A stretch of DNA of 64,000 nucleotides from Nitrospirota bacterium (lineage in GTDB: Bacteria > Nitrospirota > UBA9217), in the NCBI GenBank assembly GCA_963737155.1, contig CAVTRN010000001.1, positions 1,408,001 through 1,472,000 of the forward strand, written 5' to 3'. The notes below the pieces were generated by a model. The model worked only from the letters and a program-made list of their open reading frames with translations, had not been told where the DNA came from and searched no databases. Positions 5,139-60,640 of the stretch are shown here, piece by piece. Both the position numbers and the translations under genes were made by a program. The first letter of the stretch is position 1. Every line of letters begins with the position of its first letter.

Positions 5139-5221
5139 GACAATTAGTTATTCAGGTCTGTTTAGTAATTTTTTGTACGGGCCAATCGCAATCTTTCACT
5201 TCGCGGCAGGAGGGGTAAAGT

Positions 5222-6421
5222 ATGGCAAAGGCAAAATTTGAGAGGACAAAACCTCATGTGAACGTGGGAACCATTGGCCACGTGGACCACGGCAAAACGA
5301 CCTTGACGGCCGCCATCACGAAGGTGCTCTCCTTCAAGAACATGGCGAGCTTTGTATCCTATGACAACATCGACAAGGCGCCGGAAGAACGGGAACGCGG
5401 CATCACAATCGCCACGGCGCATGTTGAATACTCGACAGAGAACCGGCACTATGCCCACGTCGACTGTCCCGGCCATGCCGATTACGTGAAGAACATGATC
5501 ACGGGGGCGGCGCAGATGGACGGAGCGATCCTGGTGGTATCTGCCGCCGACGGTCCGATGCCCCAGACCCGCGAGCACATTCTTCTCGCCCGTCAGGTAG
5601 GCGTGCCCTATATCGTCGTCTACATGAACAAAGTAGATATGGTGGACGACCCCGAGCTGATCGAACTCGTCGAGCTCGAGATCCGGGAGCTTCTATCCAA
5701 GTACCAGTTCCCAGGGGACAAGACCCCCATTGTCAAGGGAAGCGCCCTGAAGGCGCTCCAGAGCGACAGTAAGGACGTCAACGCGCCTGAGTACAAGAGC
5801 ATCCTGGAGCTGATGGCGGCTGTGGATAGCTACATACCCCAGCCGAAGCGCGACGTCGATAAGCCCTATCTGATGCCGATTGAAGACGTGTTCTCTATCG
5901 CAGGCCGCGGTACGGTGGTGACGGGCAGGATCGAGCGCGGCATCGTGAAGGTTAGCGACGAAATTGAGATTGTCGGAATCAAGCCGACGCAGAAGACGGT
6001 AGTGACGGGCGTGGAGATGTTCCGGAAGCTTCTGGACCGGGGCGAAGCGGGCGACAATGTCGGCGTGCTTCTCCGCGGTACCAAGAAGGAAGACGTGGAG
6101 CGCGGGATGGTTTTGGCGAAGCCGGGCAGCATCACGCCACATACGAAATTCAAGGCTGAGGCGTATATTCTCACGAAGGAAGAAGGTGGCCGACACACGC
6201 CGTTCTTCAACGGCTATCGTCCGCAGTTCTATTTCCGGACGACGGACGTGACGGGCGTGGTAAAGCTTGCCGAGGGAGTGGAGATGGTGATGCCGGGCGA
6301 CAACATGACCTGCAGCGTCGAACTCATCACCCCGATCGCCATGGACCAGGGCCTGCGCTTCGCCATCCGTGAAGGCGGCAGGACCGTGGGCGCCGGCGTT
6401 ATCACCGAAGTGATCGAGTAA
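5222..6421 (+). CDS. tuf: elongation factor Tu (copy 1)
   Basis: [28 protein letters not shown]. Confidence 0.99.
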
Positions 6422-21727: not shown

Positions 21728-21780
21728 TCATTCTTTAACTATTACATTCGATTTACACTTCCCAACAGGAGGCGGATAGT

Positions 21781-22980
21781 ATGGCAAAGGCAAAATTTGA
21801 GAGGACAAAACCTCATGTGAACGTGGGAACCATTGGCCACGTGGACCACGGCAAAACGACCTTGACGGCCGCCATCACGAAGGTGCTCTCCTTCAAGAAC
21901 ATGGCGAGCTTTGTATCCTATGACAACATCGACAAGGCGCCGGAAGAACGGGAACGCGGCATCACAATCGCCACGGCGCATGTTGAATACTCGACAGAGA
22001 ACCGGCACTATGCCCACGTCGACTGTCCCGGCCATGCCGATTACGTGAAGAACATGATCACGGGGGCGGCGCAGATGGACGGAGCGATCCTGGTGGTATC
22101 TGCCGCCGACGGTCCGATGCCCCAGACCCGCGAGCACATTCTTCTCGCCCGTCAGGTAGGCGTGCCCTATATCGTCGTCTACATGAACAAAGTAGATATG
22201 GTGGACGACCCCGAGCTGATCGAACTCGTCGAGCTCGAGATCCGGGAGCTTCTATCCAAGTACCAGTTCCCAGGGGACAAGACCCCCATTGTCAAGGGAA
22301 GCGCCCTGAAGGCGCTCCAGAGCGACAGTAAGGACGTCAACGCGCCTGAGTACAAGAGCATCCTGGAGCTGATGGCGGCTGTGGATAGCTACATACCCCA
22401 GCCGAAGCGCGACGTCGATAAGCCCTATCTGATGCCGATTGAAGACGTGTTCTCTATCGCAGGCCGCGGTACGGTGGTGACGGGCAGGATCGAGCGCGGC
22501 ATCGTGAAGGTTAGCGACGAAATTGAGATTGTCGGAATCAAGCCGACGCAGAAGACGGTAGTGACGGGCGTGGAGATGTTCCGGAAGCTTCTGGACCGGG
22601 GCGAAGCGGGCGACAATGTCGGCGTGCTTCTCCGCGGTACCAAGAAGGAAGACGTGGAGCGCGGGATGGTTTTGGCGAAGCCGGGCAGCATCACGCCACA
22701 TACGAAATTCAAGGCTGAGGCGTATATTCTCACGAAGGAAGAAGGTGGCCGACACACGCCGTTCTTCAACGGCTATCGTCCGCAGTTCTATTTCCGGACG
22801 ACGGACGTGACGGGCGTGGTAAAGCTTGCCGAGGGAGTGGAGATGGTGATGCCGGGCGACAACATGACCTGCAGCGTCGAACTCATCACCCCGATCGCCA
22901 TGGACCAGGGCCTGCGCTTCGCCATCCGTGAAGGCGGCAGGACCGTGGGCGCCGGCGTTATCACCGAAGTGATCGAGTAA
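21781..22980 (+). CDS. tuf: elongation factor Tu (copy 2)
   Basis: Protein identical to 5222..6421. Confidence 0.99.
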
Positions 22981-53069: not shown

Positions 53070-53585
53070 ATGTTCAAGAACATCATTCTAACGGGGTTCA
53101 TGGGCGTCGGCAAAACAAGCGTTGGTATGCGATTGGCGAAGGATATAGGATTTTCCTTCGTAGACACCGACGATCTCATCGAGGCTGATCAGAAGATGAC
53201 CATCACCGAAATTTTCGCGAAACTTGGCGAGCACCACTTCCGTGATATCGAGTCTGGGATCATTCAACGGGTTATGGTTGGTGAAAACCAGGTTATCTCA
53301 ACCGGCGGCGGTGCCATGATCCGGGACGGAAACCGGGCAGCATTCAAGAAAGCAGGCCTTGTGGTCTGCCTGTCTGCCCGGCCCGAGGTGATCTACAAGC
53401 GCATCAGGCTTGAGACACATCGTCCCCTGCTCCAGACACCGGACCCCCTGGCAAAGATCAAGGAAATGCTCGACAGCCGCGCTGCATTTTATGCTCAGGC
53501 CGATGTGACCATCGATACTTCGGAAAAATCCATCGACGATATAATCCTCAGGATTAAAGAGAGAATTAAGCATGCATACTGTTAA
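53070..53585 (+). CDS. aroK: shikimate kinase
   Basis: GFMGVGKTS, STGGG, RPLL. Confidence 0.97.
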   Translation: MFKNIILTGFMGVGKTSVGMRLAKDIGFSFVDTDDLIEADQKMTITEIFAKLGEHHFRDIESGIIQRVMVGENQVISTGGGAMIRDGNRAAFKKAGLVVCLSARPEVIYKRIRLETHRPLLQTPDPLAKIKEMLDSRAAFYAQADVTIDTSEKSIDDIILRIKERIKHAYC

Positions 53586-54654
53586 TGTAGACCTCGGCGA
53601 GAGGAGTTACTATATTGCTCTTGGGGTCAGTCTGGATCAGTCTGGTGCGGAGCTGCAAGGGTTTGGATTCGGCAGAAAAATGGCCGTGGTTACGAATCCC
53701 TCGGTCAAGAAGCTTTACGGGCAGCGTGTGGTGGACAGTCTCAAGGCCGCGGGTTTCCTCGTCATGTCCATCGAAATCCCTGACGGCGAAAAATTCAAAA
53801 CACTTGACTGGGCCAACTCGATCTATTCAGCGCTCCTTATCAATAGCTTCGACCGTAAATCGGCGCTTGTCGCGCTCGGCGGTGGTGTGATCGGCGACAT
53901 CACCGGTTTTGCGGCAGCCACATTTATGCGCGGAGTGCCATTTGTACAGATACCTACAACACTCCTTGCCATGGTCGACAGCAGCGTCGGCGGCAAGACC
54001 GGCGTGAACCATCCCTTGGGGAAGAACATGATAGGCGCGTTTTACCAGCCGAAAAAGGTAATCATGGACCTCGACGTGCTCAAGTCGCTGCCGAAGGAGG
54101 AATTTCTCGCCGGCATGGCCGAAGTCATCAAGTATGGCATCATTCGGGATGCGTCATTTTTCGACTATCTCGACATTAACCGGGAGAAAATTCTTTCTCT
54201 CGATCCTTGCGTGTTGGAGCATATCGTACGGCGGTCCTGCGAGATCAAGGCGGAAATAGTGAGCAAGGACGAGCGCGAAGGCGGTCTCCGTGCTATCCTT
54301 AATTTCGGCCATACCGTGGCGCATGCCGTTGAGACAGCCGAGAACTATTCGTTGAGCCATGGTCATGCCGTTGCCATCGGGATGGTCTACGCTGCGCAAC
54401 TAGCGCACAAAAACGGTCTCTGCGACGGTTCGGTGCCCGAGCGGGTGAAGAAACTTCTCGCATCCTATGGTTTGCCGATCAGTCTTTCGGCGCTCAGCAG
54501 GAAGCCCACGATAGCCGAACTCATAGGTGCTATGCAGGTGGACAAGAAGGCGGAAGACGGGAAAGTGAAGTTCGTCTTACCGACTAAGATTGGTGCAGTG
54601 GTTATTACGAAGGACTGGGAAGAACAACACCTATTGGAGCTGATTTCAGAGTAG
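53572..54654 (+). CDS. aroB: 3-dehydroquinate synthase
   Basis: LGGGVIGD, VDSSVGGKTG, LNFGHT. Confidence 0.98.
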   Translation: MHTVNVDLGERSYYIALGVSLDQSGAELQGFGFGRKMAVVTNPSVKKLYGQRVVDSLKAAGFLVMSIEIPDGEKFKTLDWANSIYSALLINSFDRKSALVALGGGVIGDITGFAAATFMRGVPFVQIPTTLLAMVDSSVGGKTGVNHPLGKNMIGAFYQPKKVIMDLDVLKSLPKEEFLAGMAEVIKYGIIRDASFFDYLDINREKILSLDPCVLEHIVRRSCEIKAEIVSKDEREGGLRAILNFGHTVAHAVETAENYSLSHGHAVAIGMVYAAQLAHKNGLCDGSVPERVKKLLASYGLPISLSALSRKPTIAELIGAMQVDKKAEDGKVKFVLPTKIGAVVITKDWEEQHLLELISE

Positions 54655-54834
54655 CAGGCGTCGGTATAAGGAGGGAGTCGTTAGCGAATATCTCTGGCAC
54701 TACCCGTTCTGTAACAAGGATGAGACCGTGACCGAGTAAGGCAAGCACGGCGCTTTTGCCAATCTGATTCTCGAAAACTCAGATGATACAACCTCCTAGG
54801 TTTCTAGGGGGTTCTCAACTGTTCAATCGTTAAT

Positions 54835-55109
54835 CACTGCTGTCCAAAATAGACTTAAATAGCCATTGTGGTCAAAAAAGCACCTTGATTTTATTAATGA
54901 TGATACAGCACCCTGTATCGAGGTTCCTTTATGGTTCAGTATGCTGTCCAATATATCGAAGGACGCTCAAACTGTTTGTTTTCGCGATGATAAAGCAATT
55001 TTATCTGCAAAACAAGGGGTTTAGAGCTGTATTAAACAATCGATAAAGCCTGGGGCTCCGTTTAAGTCAAAATGCTGTCTAAAACAAAAAGCTATTTTGG
55101 ACAAGAGTG
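54835..55109. mobile_element. 275-bp MITE
   Basis: 18-bp TIRs CACTGCTGTCCAAAATAG / CTATTTTGGACAAGAGTG (16/18); 9-bp TSD ATCGTTAAT / ATTGTTAAT (8/9); no ORF. Confidence 0.85.
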
Positions 55110-55196
55110 ATTGTTAATTGTATATTAGCAACTTTTATGATATATTATTTGCAGCGTAATTTAAAAATAAGGGCTAAGCATCAGTAATCTAACAAC

Positions 55197-56902
55197 TTGA
55201 GTCCACAAAAAGTGTCGAATAAGAAAAGAACCAAAAATAAGAATGTTGGTGGAAAAGACACCCTGTCATTCACTGCAAATATATTTCTGGATGATCATTC
55301 CTACCCGGAAATAAAGACCTCTCTTTATGCCATCCTCGACAATATGGGCATCTTGTATGGCCGTATAAAGAGGACTCTGTTCAAAGACTGCATTCGCTCC
55401 GGCAAAAAACAACAGAATTAAAGAACGAATACCTGTCAACGTACAAGATCACTGCACGGCAGTACAATGCAGTCCGCTATGACCTGGACGGGAATATCAA
55501 GGCGGTAACGGAAATCAACAAGCTCAGAATCCTGGATCTTGAAGAGAAAATAATATCGGTAAAAAAGTGGATTGCAAACAATGAGTCAAGAATACTCAAA
55601 ATAACGGATGATGTGAGTATCCCAAGCACTGAAAAAAAGATCCAGGCAAAGGAGCTTCAGTATCGTGTTGATAATAAGAAACGAAAGCTTGCTTCTTTGG
55701 AGCAAAAGCTTTCCAAGCTCAGGGAAGATCAGAAAAACCGGCGGGTAAGGATTTGTTTCGGGTCAAACAAGATATTCAGAAAACAATTTTCCCTGGAGGA
55801 AAACGGGTACAAGAGCCACAATGAATGGCTCCTGGACTGGAAAAGGTCTCGCAATAACACTTTCTTTTGCCTTGGCTCGAAGGACGAATCGGGCGGGAAC
55901 CAAACGTGCACCCTGAAGTCCGATGGGACGATGAGATTAAGGGTCCCTGATTGTATGAAGGACAAATACGGGCAATCCATTATAATTCCCCGCATAAAAT
56001 ATCCCTATGGTCAGGAACATATCGAAACGGCCCTTCAGGCCGGAATAGCGATTTCTCACAGGTTTACCAGGGGCGAGAAGGGCTGGTACCTGCACACGAC
56101 GGTAGATATTCCAAAGGCAAAAACAGTTACTTACAAGCCAAAGGAAATCGGGTCTATCGGAGTGGACGTCAATGAAAAAGAAATCGCGGTTAGCGAGACC
56201 GACCGGTACGGGAATTATGTCAGGAGCATAACATATCCATCCTGCGTTAAGGATTTGCGTACTGAACAGACAGAAGCAATGTATAGCGATATCTGCAAGT
56301 CCATCGTGGACCGGGCAGCCAAGACGGGAAAACCTATATCCCACGAAGAACTCGATTTTAGCAAGAAGAAAGCTTCCTTAAAAGAGCAGGGCGTTACTTA
56401 CGCAAGGATGCTTTCCGGTTTCGCCTACGGAACCTTCCTCACCCTGCTGGATAGAAGGGCGGCAAAACATGGCGTTTCCGTGCTCCCGGTCAACCCTGCT
56501 TTCACCACGACCATAGGGAAATTTAATTACGTGGACCGCTATGGTATTACGTCGCATGAAGCTGCGGCGCTGGCCATCGCGAGACGCTCTCAACATTTCA
56601 GTGAAAGGCCTGATTCCGCCAGAATCGCGCCTCCCGTACCTGCAAGGAATCGGGGGGTGCATATCTGGAGCATTTGGAGAAGGCTGAAGACGAGACAGGC
56701 GGGCGGTAGCATTAGCCTGACCGGCTCAAGGCGGTCCTTACAGGACTCCTCAGGTTGCGCTGAACCACAAACGAAATTTACATCAACGAAGACAGCGCAA
56801 TCCATGCGGCCACCTCTTGCTACAATAAAGAGTGTGCACCGCCGCATGGGATCCCAATTCAAAAATCACGGGACTTGGGTGAATCAGAGGCATGCGCCCT
56901 GA
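55197..56902 (+). pseudogene. tnpB: TnpB-related RNA-guided nuclease (about 568 aa) with one -1 frameshift at an A6 run near 55404-55409
   Basis: The frames join as ..SGKK-TTELKNEYLSTYKITARQYNAV..; ICFGSNK, GSKDESGGNQ, RuvC-I IGVDVN, RuvC-II SHEELDF, VNPAFTT, RYGITSHEAAALAIARR. Confidence 0.82.
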
Positions 56903-57213
56903 CGTTAACCGGCAGCAGCACTGTTCGGCTGCCGTCCTAGTATGTGGAAATAAAATACTATGGTTTCAGGAACGGTTGAACAATAAGATCAGGGTGATAA
57001 AGCGCCAAGCCTATGGTTATCGAGATGAAGGATATCTTTGTCTCAAAATTCTGACCTGTATGTTGTCTTACATTTGGCCAAAAACGGCTTAAATTTACCC
57101 ACAAGTATTGCAAAAGATCCACAATATTTTGTCATAAAAGGCAAGGCAGGGAACGCTTCCCTGTTTTACTTTTATTCTGGATGTTTCCTCAACAATTTGC
57201 TACTCTACTGCCC

Positions 57214-58500
57214 ATGTTGATACGCACCTCCGCTTCGCGCAATCCCTGGTCCTTCCTTCCCACGCTTTACTTCGCCGAGGGCCTGCCGTATGTACTTATC
57301 AATACGGTGTCCGTTATCCTGTACAAGCGCATGGGCATCGATAACGCAGACATTGCCTTTTGGACAAGCTGGCTTTATCTTCCATGGGTCATCAAGATGT
57401 TTTGGGGCCCCTTTGTGGACGTATATTCCACCAAACGAAAGTGGATCCTTGCCACGCAAACGGCGATGAGCCTCTGTATGTTGCTCATCGCCGTTTCACT
57501 CAGGTCCGATGAGTTCTTTTATCTGTCCCTAGCAGCTTTCCTTGCAGGCGCATTCGTCTCCGCGACCAATGACATTGCTACGGACGGGTTCTACATGCTT
57601 GCGTTGCCGGAAAAAGAGCAAGCCCTCTTTGTGGGACTGCGGGCGGGTTTCTACCGGCTAGCAATGATCTTCGGTACGGGTTTCCTGGTCTATGTCGCTG
57701 GTATGCTCGAGATGTCGAGCGGCAATATCTCCTGGAGCTGGTCGATGGTCATGGTATTATCGGGGGTGATATTTGCCGCCGTAGCCGTATATCACAATTT
57801 TTTACTACCCTTTCCTGCAAGAGACGGCCGCCGAACTGCTGTTGAGAAGGACAACGAATCGTCCTTTGGAGAGGTCATTCGCGCTTACTTCAGACAGGAA
57901 AAGATCGGCGTCATGCTGGCATTCATTCTGTTCTACCGCTTGGGCGAAGCAATGCTCCTGAAACTGGTTTCACCTTTCCTGCTTGATCAAGGCAGTGCAG
58001 GGGGGCTTGGGCTCACGACTGAGGAGGTCGGGCTGGTTTACGGGACAATAGGCGTTGTTTGCCTGGTAAGTGGTGGTATCCTCGGAGGTTGGCTTATAGC
58101 GCGGTTCGGTTTCAGGCGGTGCGTCTGGCCCATGGTGGTCATCATGCATCTACCGGACCTCTTGTTCGTGTATATGGCTTATGCGCAGCCCGGAATTGGC
58201 TTTGTCTATCCTCTAGTGGCGCTGGAGCAGTTTGGATACGGTCTGGGCTTCACGGTGTTTACGGTTTACCTCATGTACTCAGCAACGGGTAAATATAAAA
58301 CATCGCATTATGCCATCTCAACAGGGATTATGGCGCTTGGTATGATGTTGCCGGGGTTTATAAGCGGTTGGCTCCAACAGTCGCTAGGGTACAGAAGTTT
58401 TTTCATCATCGTCTGCTTCTTGACCATTCCCGGCATGCTGACCATCCCGTTTCTTCCTAAAGACCGCTTGGAAATGTCGAAAGAAGTGCCAGAATCGTAA
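57214..58500 (+). CDS. ampG: AmpG-family MFS muropeptide transporter
   Basis: LYFAEGLPY, LPWVIKMFWGPFVD, SATNDIATDGFY; hydrophobicity pattern of an MFS transporter. Confidence 0.88.
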   Translation: MLIRTSASRNPWSFLPTLYFAEGLPYVLINTVSVILYKRMGIDNADIAFWTSWLYLPWVIKMFWGPFVDVYSTKRKWILATQTAMSLCMLLIAVSLRSDEFFYLSLAAFLAGAFVSATNDIATDGFYMLALPEKEQALFVGLRAGFYRLAMIFGTGFLVYVAGMLEMSSGNISWSWSMVMVLSGVIFAAVAVYHNFLLPFPARDGRRTAVEKDNESSFGEVIRAYFRQEKIGVMLAFILFYRLGEAMLLKLVSPFLLDQGSAGGLGLTTEEVGLVYGTIGVVCLVSGGILGGWLIARFGFRRCVWPMVVIMHLPDLLFVYMAYAQPGIGFVYPLVALEQFGYGLGFTVFTVYLMYSATGKYKTSHYAISTGIMALGMMLPGFISGWLQQSLGYRSFFIIVCFLTIPGMLTIPFLPKDRLEMSKEVPES

Positions 58501-58511
58501 CCTCAAGAGAA

Positions 58512-59144
58512 ATGAACTCTCTCGCCACTAAACCGTAAGAACGATTGTAGCGGGGGTTTCAAGGTTCCCGACGGAGGCGACCTGGAGGCATTTGCCCTCA
58601 TACTGTCTTACTTCCATCTCCCCGCGCGTGACTTCGGACCGTTCCGGCCCTAGTTGCTGCTTTTTCTTTAACCGCATGGCACGCGTTGTTTGCATTACAG
58701 CAATCTCGCCGGCAACCAGCATCTGGGTTCCCCTGTTTTTGACAGAGCGGGATGCATTAAAGTCGGCGTTTGCTGCAAATCCGCAGCGTTGGCATTCGAA
58801 TATCGCCTGAGATTGGAGATTATTAAGGTGAGTGTGCAAACGGTTCGAACACGCCTACGACGTGCCGTGTGGCGGGACGACTATGACGAGCTTGTTTTCT
58901 CTTCTGGCTATGTAGGCGAGGCGGTGAGCAGCTTTATATTGCCCCAGAGGACTCCAAAATCGTTTTATTGAGGCCTGACTTGGCGGCAGCTCCGTTGGGA
59001 AGGCATGTACTGGTACCATTTTCCGCTAGTTTAGGTTCCGGTGCTTTGGTTATGTTCTCGCCTTTAAGATCCTCTAATACAATGCTCTGCATCGGAATCT
59101 ATATATCCCCCCTCTGGGAGACGGGGTTTTTTTCGACATGGATG
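58512..59144 (-). mobile_element. internally deleted IS605/IS1341 element retaining the 3' part of tnpB
   Basis: Minus strand: TTAT target, guide AAAA plus hairpin CCCCGTCTCCCAGAGGGGGG; right end GAAA, hairpin, TCAT. Confidence 0.8.
58528..59092 (-). pseudogene. tnpB: tnpB C-terminal remnant
   Basis: IVLEDLKGENITKAPEPK..LPNGAAAKSGLNKTIL (RuvC-II), frameshifts, then FECQRCGFAANADFNASRSV (Zn knuckle/RuvC-III). Confidence 0.85.
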
Positions 59145-59745: not shown

Positions 59746-60199
59746 GGGAAGACGTCCTTACGCTCGCCAGGGCGAACAGGATAGGAGTTTAAGATCAGGC
59801 TATATGATGAAAAAGATAATACAACATAAAGGAAAAGGCAAGGGAAAAGCAACATCCCGAAGGTTGCGGAGTTTTATATTTTATGATAATACTATCGAGG
59901 ATGATGGTCAGGTTGCGGAGAATTCGTTATTCATTAAAGGGGCTCCTCAGCAGAATCTGTGGATAAAAAATCAGCATTTAAGGAAAAGTCTCGCATTCCG
60001 GCATAACCATTATGCTAATTTATAGTTGCATTGACGTCACATTTGCCATTGCTGTCTTTATTCATCGTTGCTTACAACGCAGGTGATAAATCTCACTGTG
60101 ACATTTATTAGCCTATTCGCTAGTGATGAGATCTTGCAATCACGCGTAATTACAGAACAAATACGGAATCGTAATCTAAAAAATATCCACAGATTCAGC

Positions 60200-60640
60200 G
60201 GAGGAGGCATTAAAGGCATCTGGCCGTTTCAACCAGTACCTTGCGAAGGGTCCAGCTCATGCGAAGCACTCCTTGAATTTGCTTTCAGTCCATACGAACT
60301 CGTCCCTGATCAAGATTGATTTTATTTGATTATTTTTATTCTGGAAAAGCTGGATGTTGCCGATGTAGATTGCCTCATCGTCGGGTTTGACCTCAAGCCG
60401 TTAAAACTGTCAAGTTTGTCTTTCTTGAAATCCCTAAGTTGTCTCCCGCCATACAGGACAAAAATGTTTCTGAACTCCCACGACTTGTACGTTTTAAGCT
60501 TCCGATCCCCCTCCTGAAGCTACGGATGCAGTTTGATTCGGTCGAAATTTAACGCTTTGGCCGGCCACCACGTTCATGATGCTTGTCACTTGCTGCACCG
60601 AACCTCTGGAAAGGCCTGCGCCCGCTTCGAGCATATCATG
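60200..60640 (-). pseudogene. possible decayed hypothetical gene
   Basis: Protein-like fragments in shifting frames (LEVKPDDEAIYIGNIQLFQNKNNQIKSILIRDEF); family not recognised; boundaries approximate. Confidence 0.3.

What the first reader, a model, noticed from the sequence alone, without database searches (positions are those of the whole stretch)
54749..57120. Triple-nested mobile element: MITE inside an IS607-like tnpB element inside an ISL3 relic
Seen: ISL3-like IRs at 54749 and 57120. A degenerate CTA GGT TTC (LGF) at 54796 and LNNKIRVIKRQAYG at 56976 look like two halves of the ISL3 motif LGFVEGLNNKIR, split at a GG by the 2.16-kb tnpB element. A 275-bp MITE with TIRs and a 9-bp TSD lies 23 bp inside that element's left end. 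Known: IS607 elements integrate at GG without a TSD. Inference: three successive insertions, the last probably disabling the tnpB element's left end.
Basis: partly seen in the sequence, partly recalled or inferred. Interest (0 to 1): 0.7.

Follow-up and report, generated by a model that had tools for sequence, protein, structure and literature searches.

The report
Three nested transposon remnants beside aroB
A small non-coding transposon sits inside a tnpB-only IS607-type element, which sits inside the leftover tail of an ISL3 transposase gene; this is an ordinary pile-up of decayed mobile DNA, and the proposed left ISL3 end is really a broken host gene.

Summary
The nesting is real, but one boundary is wrong.

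**Inner layer.** 54835-55109 is a 275-bp MITE with 18-nt inverted ends and a 9-bp duplication (8 of 9). Its ends match an IS4-family IS in this genome.

**Middle layer.** 54812-56975 is an IS607-family element that carries only a tnpB-like gene.
- Four other full copies give the same ends, and a fifth gives the same right end. All lack the MITE.
- It has GG at both ends, no duplication and no inverted ends.
- 66%-identical relatives in the same genome have homologous ends and carry an IS607 serine transposase.

**Outer layer.** Only about 170 bp of the 3' end of an ISL3 element survive, split at a G-run by the middle element. The right inverted repeat, ending at 57120, is genuine.

**What is wrong.** The claimed left repeat at 54749 is codons 24-27 of a decayed host gene. 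That gene is intact in one congener. A deletion fused this host remnant to the ISL3 tail.

**Natural empty sites.** Metagenome contigs show the relic without the IS607-type element, and the same left-end lineage without the MITE.

This tnpB copy has a 1-bp frameshift, A6 where all 5 other copies have A7.

**Unexplained.** Both close copies of this MITE sit at the homologous position in two diverged IS607-family left ends.

Ordinary overall.

The parts
54680..54786 (+). Remnant (first ~36 codons) of a host gene for a 230-aa protein with CxxC motifs. Its start codon reads GTT instead of GTG, a Cys codon has become Tyr, and there is a TAA at 54737-54739.
   Evidence: Aligns in register with G028 L041:2031-2723 and, as far as 54749, with the end of a G036 contig. 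No Pfam family matched the G028 protein.
54787..54811 (+). Left piece of the ISL3 transposase 3' fragment. It reads N L L G F * G, ending in the G-run used as the target. The left limit is approximate.
   Evidence: Similar to the contiguous relic C2:903700-903724. Anchored score reached by 1 of 3000 random 29-mers. An unanchored local test was not significant, 264 of 2000. Contiguous with 56978 onward in X2 record 4.
54812..56975 (+). IS607-family tnpB-only element, 2164 bp (1880 bp without the MITE and one duplicated 9-mer). It has GG at both ends, no inverted ends and no target duplication.
   Evidence: Other copies at 96-98% identity. Ends shown. Homologous ends in the 2379-bp tnpA+tnpB relatives. 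Empty site in X2 record 4.
54826..54834 (.). Left copy of the 9-bp target duplication of the MITE (ATCGTTAAT).
   Evidence: X2 record 5 carries this 9-mer once.
54835..55109 (.). 275-bp MITE of an IS4-family group. Inverted ends at 54835-54852 and 55092-55109.
   Evidence: The ends match a 1377-bp IS with a PF01609 transposase and a perfect 9-bp duplication.
55110..55118 (.). Right copy of the 9-bp target duplication (ATTGTTAAT).
55197..56902 (+). tnpB-like gene broken by a 1-bp deletion in an A-run at 55404-55409. Frame 0 stops at 55419-55421 and the rest reads in the -1 frame.
   Evidence: 5 of 5 other copies have A7 and open frames of 564-568 codons. Family and fold evidence.
56866..56975 (+). 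Conserved right end of the element, downstream of the stop codon. It includes a predicted hairpin (CGGCAGC...GCTGCCG).
   Evidence: Conserved across 16 aligned right ends, including diverged solo fragments. No Rfam match.
56976..57120 (+). Right piece of the ISL3 3' fragment. It holds the transposase C-terminus (LNNKIRVIKRQAYGYRDEGYLCLKILTCML...) and the right inverted repeat ending GATCC at 57120.

Best explanation
This is a graveyard of three unrelated transposons plus one deletion, built in the following order.

1. An ISL3-family element inserted in the AT-rich spacer upstream of the AmpG-like transporter gene, with its right end at 57120.
2. A deletion removed the 5' ~1.2 kb of that ISL3 together with the 3' ~590 bp of the neighbouring host gene. 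This left about 36 decayed host codons fused to about 170 bp of ISL3 tail.
3. A tnpB-only IS607-family element integrated at a GG inside a five-G run in that tail. The inferred mechanism is exchange by a serine recombinase supplied in trans by the full tnpA+tnpB relatives that share its ends. It made no duplication.
4. A 275-bp MITE, mobilised by an IS4-family DDE transposase, was inserted 23 bp inside the left end and duplicated 9 bp.

The resident tnpB also carries a 1-bp frameshift. The copy is therefore probably dead twice over, with a broken gene and a split left end.

Shown: all boundaries, the order of steps 2 to 4, and the family assignments. Inferred: trans-mobilisation, loss of mobility, and the way the deletion arose.
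For: **Middle element**
- Other copies define its ends.
- G-runs of 3 to 5 precede TTCTC at 5 of 5 left junctions. The element ends in ACGG in 6 of 6 copies, and the next base is T in 5 of 6.
- No duplication is visible in the flanks.
- The 2379-bp relatives (8 full copies) have homologous ends and a TnpA scoring 197.8 bits on NF033518.
- IS607 is described as lacking inverted repeats and duplications, inserting at (G)GG, with GG at its termini (PMC6188088, passages read).

**Empty sites**
- X2 record 4 runs from 54650-54813 straight into 30 of 30 letters identical to window 56978-57007.
- X2 record 5 joins 54829 to 55114 in a different flank.
- X1 record 2 bridges 54769-55148 with 0 differences.

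**MITE**
-.

**Host remnant and deletion**
-.

**ISL3 tail**
-.

**tnpB-like protein**
- NF040570 partial match, E 4.6e-12.
- 353 homologues, several named IS605 OrfB or TnpB-related by their sources.
- AlphaFold model with pLDDT 80.2. Best Foldseek matches are Cas12f, Cas12k, Cas12m, TnpB and Fanzor2.

**Frameshift**
-.
Against: - The ISL3 origin of the ~25 nt left of the insertion rests on one related relic and a short motif. An unanchored local test was not significant, 264 of 2000 shuffles. Similarity to the two congener ISL3 genes at DNA level was not above chance, 1410 and 1422 of 3000.
- The tnpB-like protein is below the curated cut-offs of every family model: 45.9 bits against 100 for NF040570, and 15.7 against 26.3 for PF07282.
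- No tnpA lies in this element, so trans-mobilisation is inference.
- The A6 run could be a homopolymer assembly error. The only near-identical run (X1) has no contig over 55172-55432.
- X1 may be the sample the genome came from, so it is not independent.
- The 5' ~350 bp of this copy holds 28 of its 38 differences from the siblings. Its history therefore includes recombination not captured by a simple three-step story.
Confidence: 0.85

Rival explanations
1. One reading: the outer layer is a complete miniature ISL3 derivative bounded by inverted repeats at 54749 and 57120.
For: GGCGCTTTTGCC at 54749 resembles the reverse complement of the right end, GGATCTTTTGC.
Against: The stretch is in-register coding sequence of a host gene in G028 (G036 aligns only up to 54749, where its contig ends). 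The match score is reached by 632 of 25,530 tiles of the window. No relative of 54749-54811 exists elsewhere in the genome. Real repeats of related ISL3 elements carry a TGAGTGGGTAA core that is absent on the left. The flanks do not form an 8-bp duplication.
Confidence: 0.03
2. The MITE was already in the left end when the tnpB element arrived here, so the composite transposed as a unit.
For: The left ~350 bp of this copy is much more diverged from its siblings than the rest, 28 of 38 differences. The duplication is imperfect, which suggests an old insertion. A second IS607-family copy carries the MITE at the homologous position.
Against: None of the 5 other copies carries the MITE. A left end of the same lineage without the MITE exists in X2. 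The two MITE-bearing left ends duplicate their own, different 9-mers, which argues for separate insertions. The insertion separates the terminal 23 bp from the rest of the left end.
Confidence: 0.12
3. The ~25 nt left of the tnpB element are not ISL3-derived. The deletion endpoint and the insertion point coincide, and the 'LGF' is chance.
For: The local alignment test was not significant. There is no DNA-level similarity to the congener ISL3 genes in that short piece.
Against: X2 record 4 shows the piece contiguous with the ISL3 tail before the insertion. The anchored similarity to the C2 relic was reached by 1 of 3000 random 29-mers. Host homology stops near 54786: beyond it I counted 6 of 24 colinear matches by eye from the sequences.
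Confidence: 0.07

Closest known systems
IS607 family (IS607 of Helicobacter pylori and relatives; serine-recombinase TnpA plus TnpB)
   Same: GG at both termini. Insertion at a (G)GG target. No inverted ends and no target duplication. A tnpB-type gene followed by a conserved right end. Relatives in the same genome with homologous ends encode an IS607-family TnpA (PMC6188088, passages read).
   Different: This copy and its 5 siblings have no tnpA, so they are non-autonomous. Their TnpB-like protein is long (563 aa), lacks the Cys4 zinc finger, and has no conserved acidic residue where RuvC-III is expected. That resembles the zinc-finger-less RIIIr-4 clade described in PMC10691335 (passages read). 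Membership of that clade was not tested.
ISL3 family insertion sequences
   Same: The C-terminal transposase motif (S)LGF(V)EGLNNKIRVI..AYG.RDE.YL.LK, and a right inverted repeat GGATC....GC......TGTGGGTAA, as in full elements of congeners G032 and G035.
   Different: Only about 170 bp remain. There is no left end, no 8-bp duplication and no catalytic domain, and there is a stop codon and a 3-bp gap relative to the related relic.
IS4-family ISs and their MITEs (DDE_Tnp_1, 9-bp duplications)
   Same: Terminal inverted repeats, a 9-bp duplication, and no open frame above 53 codons. The ends match a 1377-bp IS with a PF01609 transposase and a perfect 9-bp duplication.
   Different: Both full-length partners found in this genome have in-frame stops. 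Only two close MITE copies exist, and both lie in IS607-family left ends.

Membership tests
IS607 family | Serine-recombinase TnpA with an N-terminal DNA-binding domain | tested here: not met
   No such gene lies within 54812-56975 or in the sibling copy examined. It is present in the 66%-identical relatives: NF033518 197.8 bits, cut-off 110; PF00239 E 3.6e-18. The window element is therefore a non-autonomous derivative.
IS607 family | No terminal inverted repeats and no target-site duplication | tested here: met
   The ends GGTTCTCAAC... and ...CAGGAACGG are not inverted copies. The only 12-nt inverted pair near the ends (I13) runs into the flank. The flanks of 6 copies show no duplication. 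The empty site in X2 has no extra bases.
IS607 family | GG at both termini and a GG (preferably GGG) target | tested here: met
   5 of 5 left junctions have at least 3 G before TTCTC, and 6 of 6 right ends finish in ACGG. 8 of 8 full relatives end the same way. The empty site reads a five-G run followed by TTGAAC.
IS607 family | Short directly repeated motifs at both ends that bind TnpA | tested here: inconclusive
   By eye, ACT(A)TGKTY-like words occur near both ends. No binding data and no statistical test.
TnpB / Cas12 RuvC nucleases | Match to curated TnpB models above cut-off | tested here: not met
   NF040570 45.9 bits against 100. TIGR01766 25.9 against 32. PF07282 15.7 against 26.3.
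TnpB / Cas12 RuvC nucleases | TnpB/Cas12-like fold | tested here: met
   Model pLDDT 80.2, pTM 0.69. Foldseek top matches: Cas12f 8hr5_A at E 4.3e-8, ISFba1 TnpB at 1.4e-4, ISDra2 TnpB at 1.1e-3, Fanzor2 at 1.5e-4. TM-scores are low, 0.3-0.5.
TnpB / Cas12 RuvC nucleases | RuvC D-E-D triad and Cys4 zinc finger | tested here: inconclusive
   D319 and E379 are invariant in 39 sequences. No invariant acidic residue follows, only a nearly invariant H449 and an invariant AA..R. There is no Cys4 motif. The catalytic state cannot be decided from sequence.
ISL3 family | DDE_Tnp_ISL3 transposase | tested here: inconclusive
   Only the last 27 profile positions match, at 22.2 bits against a cut-off of 23. 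73.5% identity over 34 aa to a congener transposase that scores E 2.7e-71 on PF01610.
ISL3 family | Two terminal inverted repeats and an 8-bp duplication | tested here: not met
   The right repeat is present. The left 'repeat' is host coding sequence. The flanks GCAAGCAC and ACAATATT do not match.
MITE of an IS4-family group | Inverted ends shared with a transposase-bearing IS, a duplication of that family's length, no coding capacity, and an empty site | tested here: met
   (15 of 18 end positions shared). (PF01609, E 8.4e-21). 9-bp duplications in 3 of 3 MITE copies and in the IS. Empty sites.

The most novel reading that the evidence does not exclude
The IS4-type MITE, or the transposase that moves it, selects one particular subterminal position of IS607-family left ends. 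Both close copies of this MITE lie at the exactly homologous nucleotide, immediately 5' of TGTATA and 23-25 bp from the terminus, in two left ends whose elements are only about 66% identical. Each duplicates its own host's 9-mer. This would be a transposon that homes to, and probably cripples, another transposon's recombination site. The cue might be a DNA shape or a TnpA-bound complex rather than sequence.
Probability: 0.2. Interest if true: 0.5.

Novelty: new member of a known kind. Interest (0 to 1): 0.25.

Why it matters
The main value is annotation.
- A stretch that looks like an ISL3 inverted repeat is in fact a dead host gene.
- The aroB to AmpG-like spacer has lost a gene through IS-associated deletion.

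The locus also gives clean ends, and natural filled and empty sites, for a non-autonomous IS607-family element. That element carries a zinc-finger-less TnpB-like protein and has autonomous relatives in the same genome. This makes it a convenient pair for testing trans-mobilisation and guide-RNA function.

The repeated MITE hit at one left-end position is a small, testable oddity. Nothing here changes what is known about these families.

Tried and rejected
- **Programmed -1 frameshift at the A-run.** Rejected. 5 of 5 other copies have one more A and a single open frame.
- **Right ISL3 end at 57139 instead of 57120.** Suggested by BLAST homology with the C2 relic running to 57139. Rejected. Congener elements end at GATCC, and 57129-57139 aligns with host spacer in G036 and G028.
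- **Left flank of the insertion mimicking the element's right end.** CTAGGTTTCTAGG against CTATGGTTTCAGG gave a spurious in-frame tblastn extension. The other copies' flanks show no such likeness, so I treat it as chance.
- **Sequence preference as the reason for the double MITE hit.** 113 distinct metagenome flanks give only a weak AT-rich consensus, A..T...AT. The two sites score at the 99th and 91st percentile of genome 9-mers. 1 of 118 flanks has TGTATA nearby. This is too weak to explain the same nucleotide twice.
- **Searches that found nothing.** Rfam found nothing in 54600-57300. A sequence search of solved structures gave no meaningful hit. The first gapped metagenome pattern found nothing. 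The MITE was found in 1 of 63 other genomes of the family, and only as a 43-bp end.
- **L163.** Its flank looked like an IS607 left end but showed no further likeness.
- **Read coverage.** X1 gives no contig over 55172-55432, so the frameshift could not be checked.

Full report
**Setting.** The finding lies between aroB and an AmpG-family-like MFS transporter gene.
- aroB spans 53572-54654 and matches TIGR01357 at 406 bits, cut-off 305.
- The transporter gene spans 57181-58500 and matches TIGR00901 at 193 bits, below its cut-off of 350.
- The window is G000:C1:1408001-1472000, in a 4.84-Mb genome of two contigs.

**Middle layer: ends.**
- BLAST of 54700-57200 against the genome gave five other hits at 96-98% identity. 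All started at window 55114 (one at 55165) and ended at 56975-56979.
- Printing the junctions showed that four of them continue leftwards as GGGTTCTCA(A/G)CTGGTCAAGCT before TTAATTGTATATTAGC. The window reads GGTTCTCAACTGTTCAATCGTTAAT, then 275 bp, then ATTGTTAATTGTATATTAGC.
- The right end is ...CAGGAACGG in 6 of 6 copies.
- The flanks are unrelated and show no duplication. Three to five G precede TTCTC at 5 of 5 left junctions. T follows the final GG in 5 of 6 copies.

**Middle layer: family.**
- About 66%-identical relatives are 2379-bp elements with 8 full copies and many fragments.
- In one of them (L012) a 188-aa ORF precedes and overlaps a 487-aa homologue of the window protein.
- That ORF matches NF033518 'IS607 family transposase' (E 1.2e-58, 197.8 bits, cut-off 110) and Pfam Resolvase (E 3.6e-18).
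- Their ends are homologous to those of the window element. The left end reads GGGTGGAATACTGTTAATATTTATATTGTATAAT, and the last ~70 bp are nearly identical.
- All of this fits. The window element is a non-autonomous, tnpB-only member whose ends could be served by the relatives' TnpA. That last step is inference.

**The tnpB-like protein.**
- The window gene is split. Frame 0 (55197-55421) stops after GKKQQN and the rest reads in the -1 frame.
- The alignment shows A6 in the window against A7 in 5 of 5 other copies, which have open frames of 564-568 codons. The intact sibling ORF is 563 aa.
- Curated models match only locally and below cut-off: NF040570 at E 4.6e-12 and 45.9 of 100 bits, and PF07282 at 15.7 of 26.3 bits.
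- 353 homologues were found. Those with names are called IS605 OrfB or TnpB-related.
- In a 39-sequence alignment D319 and E379 are invariant. No acidic residue is invariant further on, and there is no Cys4 zinc finger.
- An AlphaFold model scored pLDDT 80.2 and pTM 0.69, with residues 497-563 disordered.
- The model is most similar to Cas12f, Cas12k, Cas12m, TnpB and Fanzor2 structures. The best E-value is 4.3e-8 and the TM-scores are low.
- PMC10691335 (passages read) describes a major TnpB clade, RIIIr-4, with a rearranged RuvC-III and no zinc finger. This is a likely home, but I did not test it.

**Inner layer.**
- The repeat finder gave arms at 54832-54852 and 55092-55112, 21 nt and 90% complementary.
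- Set against the uninterrupted siblings, the insert is 54835-55109 with 9-mers ATCGTTAAT and ATTGTTAAT on either side.
- An end search allowing 3 mismatches found 12 sites in the genome.
- A 1377-bp element at C1:965141-966517 has matching ends (15 of 18), a perfect 9-bp duplication ATTCAAAAT, and a transposase interrupted by stops.
- A second copy of that element has a PF01609 DDE domain (E 8.4e-21) and one in-frame stop.
- Further MITE copies lie at C2:2807460-2807717 (88-90% identical) and C2:466624-466898 (more diverged), each with an imperfect 9-bp duplication.

**Outer layer: what holds.**
- The ORF 56892-57092 matches the end of PF01610 at E 1.4e-4 and 22.2 bits, just under the cut-off of 23.
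- A second relic at C2:903721-903890 is 84% identical. It reads TCCTTGGTATTATTGAGGGG directly before TTGAAC, where the window reads TCCTAGGTTTCTAGGGGG, then the IS607-type element, then TTGAAC.
- Full ISL3 elements in congeners G032 and G035 read ...SLGFVEGLNNKIRVIQRRAYGLRDEEYLRLKVLT... Their repeats GGATCAAGTRCA...TGAGTGGGTAA align with the window's right end finishing at 57120.
- The left piece is short. An anchored comparison with the C2 relic was reached by 1 of 3000 random 29-mers. An unanchored local test was not significant (264 of 2000), and the congener genes gave nothing at DNA level.

**Outer layer: what fails.**
- The left 'IR' at 54749 has no relative in the genome.
- It matches the right repeat no better than 632 of 25,530 window tiles do.
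- In congener G028 the sequence after aroB is a 230-aa gene starting VSEYLWHCPFCNRDETVTDEGKRASFADLSVENADG. The window aligns with it in register from 54680 to about 54786, and GGCGCTTTTGCC falls on the codons for (K)RASFA. G036 aligns only up to 54749, where its contig ends.
- In the window this gene has GTT for the start codon, Tyr for a Cys, and a TAA at 54737-54739.
- In G028 both flanks lie on one contig, with 764 bp between them that hold the rest of that gene.
- Window 57129-57139 aligns with the spacer upstream of the transporter in G036 and G028.
- So a deletion joined host codon ~36 to the last ~170 bp of the ISL3.

**Natural empty sites.** Contigs of three soil-metagenome runs were laid on 54650-55500.
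- X1 record 2 (380 nt, no differences) bridges 54769-55148. X1 may be the source sample.
- X2 record 4 (589 nt, 8 differences) covers 54650-54813. It then continues with 30 letters identical to window 56978-57007. This is the host-remnant/ISL3 relic without the IS607-type element.
- X2 record 5 (510 nt) has a different left flank and joins 54829 to 55114. This is a left end of the window's lineage without the MITE, carrying ATCGTTAAT once.
- Together these fix the order as deletion, then IS607-type insertion, then MITE.

**Loose ends.**
- 28 of the 38 differences between this copy and its siblings lie in 55113-55460.
- Its left end resembles that of a ~330-bp ORF-less derivative at C1:1616xxx. 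The copy is therefore a mosaic.
- The second close MITE copy lies at the homologous position, directly 5' of TGTATA, in the left end of a decayed 2379-bp relative. It duplicates that element's own 9-mer.
- The MITE's 18-nt end occurs in at least 121 metagenome loci. The 113 distinct flanks give only a weak AT-rich preference. That does not explain two hits at one nucleotide, so this remains unexplained, with n = 2.

**Verdict.** This is a real triple nest of known element types with one mis-called boundary. It is ordinary biology and useful for annotation.

Noticed in passing
window 54680-54786; L041:2031-2723 (G028): A 230-aa protein gene with two CxxC-type motifs and no Pfam match lies downstream of aroB in one congener (in a second its parts lie at two contig ends). 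In this genome it survives only as a ~36-codon pseudogene, the rest having been lost with the ISL3 5' part.
   Followed up: partly
window 58509-59107 (minus-strand ORF 58528-58839): This is another repeated segment, with 4 megablast hits elsewhere in the genome. It carries the C-terminal piece of a canonical zinc-finger TnpB (PF07282, E 1.8e-4, below cut-off). The transporter gene is therefore flanked by IS debris on both sides.
   Followed up: no
window 56866-56975 and 15 other right ends: The last ~110 nt of the IS607-type right end are conserved even in diverged solo fragments scattered over the genome. They contain a predicted hairpin and a TAGTAT...ATACTA pairing with apparent compensatory variants. 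This may be a guide-RNA scaffold or TnpA sites. Rfam has no match.
   Followed up: partly
L013 (G000:C1:1616400-1617200), about 230-555: A ~330-bp ORF-less derivative has a left and a right end of the IS607-type family. Its left end is of the same lineage as the window copy.
   Followed up: partly
L011 (G000:C2:2804500-2808200): A decayed 2379-bp-family IS607 copy lacks most of tnpA. It carries the same MITE at the homologous left-end position.
   Followed up: partly
L014 (G000:C2:657000-660800): A 560-bp IS200-like element (PF01797, E 3.5e-45; about 9 near-identical copies in the genome) is inserted ~170 bp inside an end fragment of the IS4-type group. This is a further nested insertion.
   Followed up: partly
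own genome: PF01610 gave 24 matches in the genome, 16 of them full-length, falling into at least six ISL3 lineages. One lineage is flanked on both sides by the palindrome AAATATTT, suggesting a specific 8-bp target.
   Followed up: partly
window 5194-6421 and 21752-22980; 59941-60208: Further segments of the window have near-identical copies elsewhere in the genome. I did not examine them.
   Followed up: no
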